Positions 3,697-8,656 of a stretch of 64,000 bases of DNA are shown piece after piece. Each line of letters begins with the position of its first letter. Within the stretch, counting starts at the first letter, position 1. The stretch lies in the NCBI RefSeq assembly GCF_050920415.1, contig NZ_CP169309.1, one strand, 5' to 3'. The notes under the pieces were generated by a model. The model had not been told where the DNA came from and did not search any database. It was given only the letters and a program-made list of their open reading frames with translations. The translations under genes and the position numbers were made by a program. This DNA comes from Escherichia coli. Its GTDB lineage: Bacteria; Pseudomonadota; Gammaproteobacteria; Enterobacterales; Enterobacteriaceae.

Positions 3697-5234
<1,538 letters not shown>

Positions 5235-5471
5235 TTATTGTTTTATTACCAAATGGCAACCTAATCTAATCAGATTGAAAGATTTAAAAGTGTTATTTTG
5301 ATCTCAAAATGAAAGATAAATATTTTAATTTGAAAGTTTGTATAAAAGGATAGTGAGGCGGATGAGTTGAGTTATGTAAAGTCTGTATCGGGCAGTGACT
5401 ACCGCTTCCTTGTGCAGGGCGGGATGCTTTACCATACTTGCCCCTGGTTGAATTTGTTAAATGGACCCCTC

Positions 5472-6557
5472 ATGTTCAAGCGTCGTTATGTAACATTGCT
5501 TCCCCTTTTTGTGTTGCTTGCCGCCTGTAGCAGCAAGCCAAAACCTACTGAGACTGAAACGACCACCGGAACGCCGTCTGGCGGCTTCCTGCTTGAGCCG
5601 CAGCACAATGTGATGCAGATGGGCGGCGATTTCGCTAACAACCCGAATGCCCAGCAGTTCATCGACAAAATGGTGAGCAAACACGGTTTCAATCGTCAGC
5701 AGTTGCAGGAAATTCTCTCCCAGGCGAAACGTCTGGATTCGGTATTGCGGCTGATGGATAACCAGGCACCAACCACATCGGTGAAACCGCCATCAGGTCC
5801 GAACGGCGCATGGCTGCGTTATCGCAAAAAATTTATTACGCCGGACAACGTGCAAAACGGCGTGGTTTTCTGGAATCAGTATGAAGACGCGTTGAATCGT
5901 GCGTGGCAGGTGTATGGTGTACCGCCGGAAATTATCGTCGGGATTATCGGCGTCGAAACTCGCTGGGGACGCGTGATGGGGAAAACCCGTATCCTCGATG
6001 CGCTGGCAACGCTGTCATTTAACTACCCACGCCGCGCGGAGTATTTCTCTGGTGAGCTGGAAACCTTCTTGCTGATGGCGCGCGACGAGCAGGACGATCC
6101 GCTCAATCTGAAAGGCTCGTTTGCCGGTGCGATGGGCTACGGTCAGTTTATGCCATCGTCTTATAAACAATATGCGGTAGATTTCAGCGGCGACGGGCAT
6201 ATCAACCTGTGGGATCCGGTTGATGCCATCGGTAGTGTGGCGAACTATTTTAAAGCGCACGGCTGGGTGAAAGGTGATCAGGTTGCGGTGATGGCAAACG
6301 GTCAGGCTCCAGGCTTACCGAATGGCTTCAAAACCAAGTACAGCATTTCACAACTTGCTGCAGCTGGACTAACGCCACAGCAGCCGCTGGGCAATCATCA
6401 GCAGGCCAGCTTACTGCGCCTGGATGTTGGCACCGGTTACCAGTACTGGTACGGTTTGCCGAACTTCTACACTATCACCCGTTACAATCACAGCACCCAT
6501 TACGCAATGGCCGTCTGGCAGTTAGGACAAGCCGTGGCACTGGCGCGCGTTCAGTAA
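5472..6557 (+). CDS. mltB: membrane-bound lytic murein transglycosylase B (lipoprotein)
   Basis: Internal start MFKRRYVTLLPLFVLLAAC gives lipobox and 361 aa; the longer ORF from 5367 is rejected. Confidence 0.85.
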   Translation: MFKRRYVTLLPLFVLLAACSSKPKPTETETTTGTPSGGFLLEPQHNVMQMGGDFANNPNAQQFIDKMVSKHGFNRQQLQEILSQAKRLDSVLRLMDNQAPTTSVKPPSGPNGAWLRYRKKFITPDNVQNGVVFWNQYEDALNRAWQVYGVPPEIIVGIIGVETRWGRVMGKTRILDALATLSFNYPRRAEYFSGELETFLLMARDEQDDPLNLKGSFAGAMGYGQFMPSSYKQYAVDFSGDGHINLWDPVDAIGSVANYFKAHGWVKGDQVAVMANGQAPGLPNGFKTKYSISQLAAAGLTPQQPLGNHQQASLLRLDVGTGYQYWYGLPNFYTITRYNHSTHYAMAVWQLGQAVALARVQ

Positions 6558-6566
6558 CTCTTTGCA

Positions 6567-6597
6567 AGAGGGGGGTTAAACTTCCCTCTGTTTTCTT
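6567..6597 (+). terminator. putative rho-independent terminator after mltB
   Basis: agaggg...ccctct hairpin followed by gttttctt. Confidence 0.45.
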
Positions 6598-7017
6598 ACT
6601 GTTTATTCGAATGACGTAATTGCTTGATTTTTTTCGACAGCGATATCGCATATCCCAGGCAGACAACGCCTAACGCAGCCTGACCGAAGTCGAAAGGTTC
6701 AAGGTAGCCAGAAGATAAAATTTTACATATCACTGAAACCAGTGCACCGATGCCACCAATGATGACCCAAATACGCATTTGCGTGGTTTGTTTAAGCGCG
6801 TTTTGTGGCGTGTTATCCGTTTTCTTTGTTGCCATTGCTATTCTCTCCCTGTGAATACATATCAATGTGAACGCGGCATGGTAGCGCTTTTTCTTTACCG
6901 ACTGGTCGCAACAGTCTTTTTCCGGAACGCAACTCGTAAAATGAATCGCTCGTCCCCATCTTCTGCGGGAAAGTGCTATCTTGTCCGGCATATATTTTTT
7001 GACTGACTGAGGTTGTG

Positions 7018-7511
7018 ATGATTGACAGTGAACTGATGCAGTTAAGCGAACAGGTAGGGCAGACGCTGAAAGCCCGTGGCGCAACCGTAACAACTGCCGA
7101 GTCTTGTACCGGCGGTTGGGTAGCGAAAGTGATTACCGATATTGCCGGTAGTTCCGCCTGGTTTGAACGCGGATTTGTCACCTACAGTAACGAAGCCAAA
7201 GCGCAGATGATCGGCGTACGCGAAGAGACGCTGGCGCAGCATGGCGCGGTGAGCGAACCCGTCGTGGTGGAAATGGCGATAGGCGCACTGAAAGCGGCTC
7301 GTGCTGATTATGCTGTGTCTATCAGCGGTATCGCCGGGCCGGATGGCGGTAGTGAAGAGAAACCTGTCGGCACTGTCTGGTTTGCTTTTGCCACTGCCCG
7401 CGGCGAAGGCATTACCCGCCGGGAATGCTTCAGCGGTGATCGTGATGCGGTGCGTCGTCAGGCTACTGCGTATGCATTGCAAACCTTGTGGCAACAATTT
7501 CTACAAAACAC

Positions 7512-7515: not shown

Positions 7516-8656
<1,141 letters not shown>

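What the first reader, a model, noticed from the sequence alone, without database searches (positions are those of the whole stretch)
6596..6835. Possible unannotated small membrane protein gene between mltB and pncC
On the minus strand an ATG at 6835, preceded by a good Shine-Dalgarno (gggagag, 7 nt upstream), opens a 79-codon ORF (MATKKTDNTPQNALKQTT QMRIWVIIGGIGALVSVICKILSSGYLEPFDFGQAALGVVCLGYAISLSKKIKQLRHSNKQ) with two hydrophobic helices and a basic tail. The mltB-pncC gap here is 457 bp, which seems longer than I recall for K-12.
Basis: inference. Interest (0 to 1): 0.35.

Follow-up and report, generated by a model that had tools for sequence, protein, structure and literature searches.

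The report
Conserved small membrane gene missing from K-12
The ORF is a real, evolutionarily conserved gene for a 79-residue two-helix inner-membrane protein that databases already list as a "hypothetical protein"; it looked new only because most E. coli, including K-12, have lost it, and its function is still unknown.

Summary
A 79-codon ORF lies at 6596-6835 (-), with GGGAGAG 7 nt upstream of its ATG. The mltB-pncC gap is 460 bp here and 144 bp in K-12-type genomes.

The gene is not unannotated. RefSeq calls it "hypothetical protein" WP_000201677.1 in a genome 100% identical over window 6400-7200. All 60 sampled records among the 573 of 5,426 complete E. coli genomes that carry it, including ST131 strains, are annotated the same way.

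It is a real protein-coding gene:
- Intact orthologues occupy the same slot, divergent from pncC-recA-recX, in E. albertii, E. whittamii, cryptic Escherichia clades, Citrobacter and Salmonella enterica. E. fergusonii proteins fall in the same sequence cluster.
- dN/dS is about 0.05-0.45 (most pairs under 0.3).
- Variable sites by codon position are 9/4/23.
- The ATG and the GAGAG-type ribosome-binding site are conserved.

The predicted product is an N-in/C-in helical hairpin with a conserved periplasmic turn and a basic tail. It has no Pfam or NCBIfam family, no solved relative and no literature.

Weak holin hits did not survive testing. The profile-profile match covers one helix only, there are no phage relatives, and the gene sits in no lysis cassette.

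Most E. coli carry a roughly 316-bp deletion. Carriers hold short, divergent, recombination-like tracts. This is an ordinary accessory gene of unknown function.

The parts
6596..6835 (-). CDS for a 79-aa small membrane protein (ATG 6833-6835, stop TAA 6596-6598). It is identical to the RefSeq hypothetical protein WP_000201677.1.
   Evidence: define the ORF and its annotation. dN/dS is 0.05-0.45 (most pairs under 0.3). Variable sites by codon position are 9/4/23.
6843..6849 (-). Shine-Dalgarno sequence GGGAGAG, 7 nt upstream of the ATG.
   Evidence: Searches place it. A GAGAG/GGAGAG motif is kept at the same distance in 12 of the 13 orthologues compared (the L006 sequence has GAGAAGGA), while the length of the open frame upstream varies from 4 to 115 codons.
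6628..6634 (-). A7 homopolymer (ORF nt 202-208, codons K68-K69-I70). It is a slippage hot spot that produces alternative C-terminal tails.
   Evidence: One search shows A7 in all 7 Escherichia alleles but not in Citrobacter or Salmonella. Strain EC5931 has A8, giving a 77-aa product that ends KKNQAITPFE. Frameshifted tail variants appear, including the 74-aa E. marmotae form P0013, seen on 12 contigs.
6567..6589 (+). G+C-rich hairpin in the 38-bp spacer between the convergent mltB and ORF stop codons. On the + strand it looks like a terminator for mltB. It is weaker on the ORF strand.
   Evidence: One search finds a 10-pair stem followed by GTTTTCTT on the + strand. It is conserved in K-12-type genomes. 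On the - strand the fold is -8.5 kcal/mol, z = -1.0, with no U-tract.
6593..6908 (.). The roughly 316-bp segment present here and in 573 of 5,426 complete E. coli genomes but absent from K-12-type genomes. It contains the ORF, the SD and about 70 bp of upstream sequence.
6836..7017 (-). Divergent intergenic region shared with pncC, where the ORF's promoter must lie. No sigma-70 consensus match was found.
   Evidence: One search finds 0 promoter-like sites. In one search the half nearer the ORF is conserved only within Escherichia, while the half nearer pncC is conserved across genera.

Best explanation
The ORF is a genuine, translated accessory gene for a small inner-membrane protein. The protein has a roughly 20-residue basic cytoplasmic N-terminus carrying a conserved L-K-Q...R-x-W motif. 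This is followed by TM1 (about residues 21-41, with a conserved GG), a short acidic periplasmic turn with the family signature S-G-Y-x-E-P-Y/F-D-G/F-G-Q, a weaker TM2 (about residues 50-67, L-G-x-x-C-L-G-Y), and a basic cytoplasmic tail. The predicted topology is N-in/C-in. The gene is ancestral to the Escherichia-Citrobacter-Salmonella group and always lies immediately upstream of, and divergent from, pncC-recA-recX. A roughly 316-bp deletion removed it from the main E. coli lineage, including K-12. About 10% of complete E. coli genomes, among them ST131 strains, carry it on short tracts that are unusually divergent from K-12 and resemble other Escherichia species. Shown here: the gene structure, conservation, purifying selection, synteny, hairpin architecture, absence of any known family, and absence from phages. 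Inferred: the mode of action. Like the characterised enterobacterial small membrane proteins, it most likely works by helix-helix packing in the inner membrane, either with itself or with a larger membrane protein whose activity or stability it modulates. The conserved periplasmic turn would be the specific contact. The gene is dispensable for growth, because most E. coli live without it.
For: Existence and annotation:
- Searches confirm the ORF and its RefSeq annotation.
- It is single-copy and chromosomal in 573 of 5,426 genomes, and was annotated in all 60 sampled.

Synteny:
- Orthologues at 43-54% identity lie between SLT_2 (mltB) and CinA (pncC)-RecA-RecX in Citrobacter amalonaticus, Citrobacter spp., Salmonella enterica and an ENA contig.
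- In L006-L009 an ABC-transporter operon lies between mltB and the gene, yet the gene still abuts pncC.

Coding signal:
- Intact frames are found in 12 orthologues.
- Nei-Gojobori dN/dS is 0.05-0.45 within Escherichia (most pairs under 0.3) and about 0.15-0.25 across genera where dS is estimable.
- Variable sites by codon position are 9/4/23, and every other frame contains stop codons.
- The conserved ATG and SD contrast with a variable upstream open frame.

Structure and topology:
- AlphaFold2 predicts a helix hairpin, H9-42 and H47-78, at mean pLDDT 66.
- The charge distribution is +3 / -2 / +5.
- Conserved columns include L14, G28, L55, Y62, R21, W23, G27, P47, Q52, G56 and G61.

No known relatives:
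- Nothing significant in Pfam, NCBIfam or PADLOC, in PDB sequences or in fold searches.
- The exhaustive HMMER search found only 12 cluster representatives.
Against: - There is no direct evidence of transcription or translation. The tools offer no Ribo-seq, proteomics or transcription-start data, and no paper mentions the gene.
- No sigma-70 consensus promoter was found upstream.
- The 'partner-binding modulator' mechanism is an analogy, not a test.
- The AlphaFold2 confidence is only moderate.
- The gene has been lost from most E. coli. It was also not returned for the representative genomes of E. coli or S. enterica in the pattern-limited scan, so any function is conditional.
- The C-terminal tail is mutable at an A7 run.
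Confidence: 0.85

Rival explanations
1. It is a domesticated class II (pinholin-like) holin or another self-oligomerising pore former. It would permeabilise or depolarise the inner membrane under some stress, perhaps in functional connection with the adjacent lytic transglycosylase MltB.
For: - The architecture resembles that of class II holins: about 80 aa, two TM helices, N-in/C-in, and a highly charged C-terminal tail.
- There are weak hits to PHROG_1129 'holin' (E = 0.0011; 5 of 27 family members) and to PF04971, the phage 21 S holin (4 of 27 members, best E = 0.006).
- One UniProt entry for the E. whittamii orthologue is auto-named 'Holin'.
- The gene is convergent with mltB in most genomes.
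Against: - The profile-profile comparison with an S21 holin family alignment gives only 45% probability over 26 columns. It aligns this family's TM1 with S21's TMD2, so the similarity is one helix and out of register.
- All Pfam hits fall below the gathering threshold.
- No relative was found among 2.9 million viral contigs.
- The only 'phage' tblastn hits are low-coverage UNVERIFIED_ORG contigs that are 95-96% identical to the Salmonella chromosome.
- The only plasmid hit is a 728-kb Salmonella record.
- The gene is not in a lysis cassette.
- MltB is a Sec/Lol-exported lipoprotein that needs no holin (established knowledge).
- K-12 keeps mltB without this gene, and an operon separates the two genes in L006.
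Confidence: 0.08
2. It is the toxin of a type I toxin-antitoxin module, or an SOS-induced membrane peptide of the TisB/DinQ type, given that it lies next to recA.
For: It is a small hydrophobic protein close to recA. The + strand opposite the ORF carries a few terminator-like hairpins.
Against: - It has two TM helices and 79 aa rather than one helix and fewer than 60 aa.
- It is single-copy at a fixed locus.
- The only LexA box in the 64-kb window is recA's own, at 7516-7535.
- There is no Rfam match on either strand.
- No antisense promoter-like site was found.
- It has been stably inherited under purifying selection across genera.
Confidence: 0.03
3. It is a chance ORF in non-coding spacer DNA, or a decaying pseudogene, that gene callers have over-annotated.
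For: - ORFs of this size are common by chance.
- G+C is 43%, against 54-56% in the flanking genes.
- No consensus promoter was found.
- The gene is absent from most E. coli.
- Frameshift variants occur at the A7 run.
Against: - The frame stays intact across genera even though synonymous sites are saturated.
- dN/dS is well below 1, and third-position variation predominates.
- The start codon and SD are conserved.
- Conserved amino-acid motifs persist at 30-50% identity.
- The frameshifts affect only the last roughly 10 codons.
Confidence: 0.03

Closest known systems
RefSeq 'hypothetical protein' cluster WP_000201677.1 / WP_000985460.1 / WP_000201679.1 (Escherichia) and the 81-82-aa Salmonella/Citrobacter 'hypothetical/membrane protein' orthologues
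   Same: Identical or orthologous sequence, the same locus and the same length.
   Different: Nothing differs; this is the same gene. None of these entries has a function, family or publication.
Characterised enterobacterial small inner-membrane proteins that modulate larger membrane proteins (AcrZ, MgtS, MgrB, PmrR, CydX, KdpF; from general knowledge)
   Same: Under 100 aa, alpha-helical and membrane-embedded, chromosomally encoded, conserved among enteric bacteria, and missed or unnamed by annotation.
   Different: No sequence relationship exists. Most of those proteins have one TM helix, whereas this one has two joined by a conserved periplasmic turn. No partner is known, and the gene is absent from K-12.
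Class II holins of the phage 21 S (pinholin) family, PF04971
   Same: Similar size, two TM segments, predicted N-in/C-in topology and a charged C-terminal tail. Sub-threshold HMM hits were found.
   Different: The profile-profile match covers one helix only and is out of register. There is no phage or prophage context and there are no viral relatives. There is no adjacent endolysin or spanin. Here the weakly hydrophobic helix is TM2, not TM1.

Membership tests
RefSeq hypothetical-protein cluster WP_000201677.1 (Escherichia small membrane protein at mltB|pncC) | Sequence identity with the annotated CDS at the same locus | tested here: met
   NZ_CP169399.1 is 100% identical over window 6400-7200, and its CDS coordinates map exactly to 6596-6835. 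P0001 is 99% identical.
RefSeq hypothetical-protein cluster WP_000201677.1 (Escherichia small membrane protein at mltB|pncC) | Conserved position divergent from pncC-recA-recX | tested here: met
Class II holin, phage 21 S family (PF04971) | Significant sequence or profile similarity over both TM domains | tested here: not met
   The query itself has no PF04971 hit at E <= 1. Four of 27 family members hit it, with best E = 0.006. hhalign gives 45% probability over 26 columns, aligning TM1 with TMD2.
Class II holin, phage 21 S family (PF04971) | Two TM domains, N-in/C-in, with a charged C-terminal tail | tested here: met
   This rests on hydropathy, charge distribution and the AlphaFold2 model only. 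The topology has not been measured.
Class II holin, phage 21 S family (PF04971) | Encoded in a phage or prophage lysis cassette next to an endolysin and spanins | tested here: not met
   The gene sits at a fixed chromosomal locus between mltB and pncC in every genome examined. There are no relatives in viral contigs. The 'phage' hits are Salmonella chromosomal contaminants.
Class II holin, phage 21 S family (PF04971) | Dual-start motif giving holin and antiholin | tested here: not met
   The N-terminus is MATKKTDN, and the next Met is codon 20. No Met-Lys-Met type dual start is conserved.
Class II holin, phage 21 S family (PF04971) | Timed hole formation or membrane depolarisation | not testable with these tools
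   This needs expression and membrane-potential assays.
Type I toxins / SOS membrane peptides (Hok, Ldr, TisB, DinQ, Ibs, ShoB) | A single TM peptide under about 60 aa with a cis- or trans-encoded antisense RNA | tested here: not met
   The protein is 79 aa with two helices. There is no Rfam hit on either strand and no antisense promoter-like site.
Type I toxins / SOS membrane peptides (Hok, Ldr, TisB, DinQ, Ibs, ShoB) | A LexA box (for the SOS-induced members) | tested here: not met
   The only LexA-box match in the window is at 7516-7535, upstream of recA.
Small inner-membrane modulators (a functional kind, not a homologous family) | Under 100 aa, membrane-integral, and under purifying selection | tested here: met
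Small inner-membrane modulators (a functional kind, not a homologous family) | Physical and functional interaction with a larger membrane protein | not testable with these tools
   This needs co-purification, a bacterial two-hybrid screen, or a genetic screen.

The most novel reading that the evidence does not exclude
This is an enterobacterial small-membrane-protein family with no Pfam, NCBIfam or PDB relative, conserved for the whole Escherichia-Salmonella-Citrobacter divergence. It may have escaped all small-protein work because K-12, and apparently the S. enterica representative genome, lack it. It could have a specific envelope or stress function, either as a modulator of an inner-membrane complex or as a chromosomally fixed pinholin-like depolarising protein. 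If so, its re-import into the pandemic ST131 lineage on an E. albertii-like recombination tract would have phenotypic consequences.
Probability: 0.15. Interest if true: 0.5.

Novelty: already known. Interest (0 to 1): 0.22.

Why it matters
The practical consequence is small. The gene model is already in RefSeq, so nothing new is added to the annotation.

The analysis upgrades a "hypothetical protein" to a well-supported family under purifying selection, with a defined topology and signature motifs. It also explains why the family has never been studied: it is missing from K-12. It was also not returned for the S. enterica representative genome, although that scan was limited by its search patterns.

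The gene is present in ST131 strains, E. albertii, E. fergusonii and many Salmonella serovars. That makes it a reasonable low-cost candidate for small-protein functional screens in non-K-12 strains. The locus is also a tidy example of gene loss followed by re-acquisition through short homologous recombination tracts.

Tried and rejected
- **Family libraries.** Pfam, NCBIfam and PADLOC gave nothing above threshold. The IncE hit (E = 0.019) was dismissed as hydrophobic-segment noise.
- **Holin lead** (PHROG_1129, PF04971). This was followed up with an S21-family alignment and hhalign, a BFVD fold search, tblastn against phages and a scan of viral contigs. It was rejected as homology.
- **Phage tblastn hits.** These turned out to be Salmonella chromosomal contamination. 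The plasmid hit is a 728-kb Salmonella record.
- **Rfam.** No RNA family was found on either strand of 6300-7300.
- **Promoter and LexA scans.** No consensus sigma-70 promoter was found, and there is no LexA box near the ORF.
- **Solved structures.** The PDB sequence and fold searches gave nothing. The afdb50 library was unavailable.
- **Literature.** Searches by gene names, locus tags and accessions found nothing on this gene.
- **Longer gene models.** The 165-aa TTG-started extension of the ORF, and the 111-131-aa database versions, were rejected. The upstream frame is not conserved, and the longer C-terminal forms are frameshift read-throughs at the A7 run.

Full report
**1. The observation**

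The minus strand of 6300-7100 and the ORF list confirm an ATG at 6835 followed by 79 sense codons and a TAA at 6596-6598. GGGAGAG occupies 6843-6849, 7 nt before the ATG.

mltB ends at 6557. pncC is annotated from the ATG at 7018, so the gap is 460 bp. A K-12-type genome has a gap of 144 bp. A three-way alignment places the difference in one block of about 316 bp, roughly window 6593-6908. The block starts just after the shared mltB terminator hairpin (6567-6589) and ends about 70 bp upstream of the ORF start.

The ORF alone is not remarkable, because one search lists 50 ORFs of at least 30 aa in 4.5 kb.

**2. It is already annotated**

A megablast of 6400-7200 against 5,426 complete E. coli genomes finds a 100% identical record, NZ_CP169399.1. 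In that record exactly this CDS is annotated as "hypothetical protein" WP_000201677.1.

The 326-bp indel segment is present, single-copy and chromosomal, in 573 of the 5,426 genomes. All 60 records sampled evenly down the ranking carry a "hypothetical protein" feature there.

About 57 of those 60 share one allele that is 94.5% identical to the window. These include named ST131 strains (JJ2434, O25b:H4-ST131), where the protein is WP_000985460.1. A third allele, WP_000201679.1, occurs in CT01 and XJ5.2. The window's own allele is rare: 7 genomes reach at least 99% identity.

**3. It is a real protein-coding gene**

- **Close homologues.** Word-indexed and exhaustive protein searches find close homologues only in Escherichia: E. 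coli, E. fergusonii, E. albertii, E. marmotae, E. whittamii and unclassified clades.
- **Distant homologues.** Relatives at 30-55% identity occur in Citrobacter, Salmonella enterica (several subspecies and many serovars) and a few other Enterobacterales.
- **Synteny.** The distant homologues sit in the same place. In C. amalonaticus, two Citrobacter species, S. enterica and an ENA contig, the gene lies between SLT_2 (mltB) and CinA (pncC)-RecA-RecX, divergent from pncC. In contigs L006-L009 a ZnuA-type ABC operon lies between it and mltB, and the small gene still abuts pncC.
- **Intact frames.** All 12 orthologous frames examined are intact.
- **Selection.** Pairwise Nei-Gojobori dN/dS is 0.05-0.45 within Escherichia (most pairs under 0.3). 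It is about 0.15-0.25 between genera where dS can be estimated, and dS is otherwise saturated. Among seven Escherichia alleles, variable sites fall 9/4/23 on codon positions 1/2/3. Every alternative frame contains stop codons.
- **Start site.** The ATG and a GAGAG-type SD are conserved in nearly all orthologues. The in-frame open stretch upstream varies from 4 to 115 codons. This fixes the start at 6835 and rules out the longer database gene models.

**4. The predicted protein**

Hydropathy shows a strong TM1 at about residues 21-41 and a weaker TM2 at about 50-67. Net charges are +3 (N-terminus), -2 (loop) and +5 (tail), which by the positive-inside rule means N-in/C-in.

AlphaFold2, run on a 27-sequence alignment, gives a helical hairpin (H9-42, H47-78) at a moderate mean pLDDT of 66.

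The family signature is as follows:
- L-K-Q, then R-x-W, before TM1.
- G-G within TM1.
- A strongly conserved turn, S-G-Y-x-E-P-Y/F-D-G/F-G-Q.
- L-G-x-x-C-L-G-Y in TM2.
- S-K-K-I-x-Q-L at the start of the tail.

G+C is 43%, against 54-56% for the neighbouring genes.

**5. Comparison with known families**

No Pfam or NCBIfam model reaches threshold, and PADLOC finds nothing. There is no PDB sequence relative and no Foldseek match in the PDB or BFVD. Rfam finds nothing on either strand.

The only functional lead was a set of weak holin hits:
- PHROG_1129 at E = 0.0011, matched by 5 of 27 family members.
- PF04971, the phage 21 S holin, matched by 4 of 27 members with best E = 0.006.
- One UniProt auto-name, "Holin".

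I tested this lead in three ways.
- A 20-sequence S21-family alignment compared by hhalign gives only 45% probability over 26 columns. It aligns this family's TM1 with S21's second TM domain. That is one-helix similarity, not homology.
- A scan of 2.9 million viral contigs finds no relative.
- The two tblastn hits in the phage collection are "UNVERIFIED_ORG" contigs of about 2x coverage that are 95-96% identical, end to end, to the Salmonella chromosome at this very locus.

The gene is never in a lysis cassette. K-12 keeps mltB without it. Membership of the class II holins is therefore not supported, although a holin-like mode of action cannot be formally excluded.

An SOS or type I toxin reading is also unsupported. 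The only LexA box in the window is recA's own, at 7516-7535. There is no antisense RNA family or antisense promoter-like site. The protein is longer than such toxins and has two helices.

**6. Most likely mode of action (inference)**

Three things are consistent with helix-helix packing in the inner membrane, either with itself or with a larger partner:
- the small-residue motifs in both helices;
- the invariant periplasmic turn;
- the precedent of characterised enteric small membrane proteins (general knowledge).

The function must be conditional, because most E. coli lack the gene.

The ORF's promoter was not identified. No sigma-70 consensus was found, and the ORF-proximal upstream DNA is conserved only within Escherichia.

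**7. Population history**

Sliding identity shows three patterns.
- The ST131 allele is 97.5-100% identical to E. albertii NBRC 107761 across roughly window 5900-7090. It is 83-96% identical to K-12 over the same stretch.
- CT01 is 96-99.5% identical to K-12 across mltB (5135-6690). It resembles Escherichia sp. MOD1-EC7003 across the ORF (98%).
- The window allele is 90-95% identical to K-12 between about 5900 and 6690, and 82% at 6891-7090. It has no close donor among the species sampled (94-96% to Escherichia sp. E1V33).

The simplest reading is an old deletion in the main E. coli lineage, with short recombinational re-imports, or retained ancient haplotypes, in the carriers.

An Escherichia-specific A7 run (6628-6634) is a slippage site. 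EC5931 has A8 and a 77-aa product. E. marmotae carries a 74-aa form. Several assemblies show tails shifted by -1 or +1. Only the last roughly 10 residues are affected, and some of these variants may be sequencing errors.

**8. Verdict**

This is an ordinary, already catalogued accessory gene of unknown function. The mildly interesting points are that it defines a family with no known relatives, and that K-12 lacks it. It was also not returned for the representative genomes of E. coli or S. enterica, which is pattern-limited evidence.

Noticed in passing
window about 5900-7090, compared with L020 (ST131) and L014 (E. albertii): Across the 3' half of mltB, the small ORF and the pncC upstream region, the ST131 allele is 97.5-100% identical to E. 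albertii NBRC 107761. It is only 83-96% identical to K-12-type E. coli over the same stretch. This looks like a roughly 1.2-kb interspecies recombination tract. CT01 shows a shorter tract resembling Escherichia sp. MOD1-EC7003.
   Followed up: partly
window 6933-6961 (+), upstream of pncC: The block CTCGTAA-N14-CCCCATCT is conserved in all nine Escherichia, Salmonella and Citrobacter sequences aligned. From memory, it resembles the sigma-32 heat-shock promoter consensus (CTTGAAA-N13-14-CCCCATNT). In K-12 the -10-like part reads CACCATCT. This suggests a heat-shock promoter for pncC(-recA). No supporting paper was found.
   Followed up: partly
window 6628-6634: The A7 run in the last tenth of the ORF varies in length (A8, and shifts in the other direction) among Escherichia assemblies, giving three alternative C-terminal tails. 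The run is absent from the Salmonella and Citrobacter orthologues. Real slippage polymorphism and homopolymer sequencing error were not separated.
   Followed up: partly
L024 and L025 (OR845620.1, OR845594.1 in the phage collection): Two records deposited as 'Escherichia phage ECO95 1-6-1' (UNVERIFIED_ORG, about 2x coverage, about 1.9 kb) are Salmonella chromosomal DNA from the srlA-mltB-ORF-pncC-recA region. They are 95-96% identical to L021 over their full length, so they are contaminants in the phage database.
   Followed up: yes
window 6900-6916 (+): The short inverted repeat GACTGGTCGCAACAGTC, followed by TTTTTCC, lies between the ORF start and the pncC promoter block. It is terminator-like on the + strand and conserved only within Escherichia. 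Its function is unknown.
   Followed up: no
L011 6001-6575 (Affinibrenneria salicis): A distant family member (P0031, 84 aa, 31-36% identity) lies outside the mltB-pncC context. It is followed immediately by a second small ORF of 78 aa with no Pfam hit. This may be a paralogous pair.
   Followed up: no
L006-L009 (unidentified Enterobacterales contigs from Logan): A ZnuA/ABC-3/ABC_tran metal-uptake operon is inserted between mltB and the small gene. The small gene stays adjacent to pncC.
   Followed up: no
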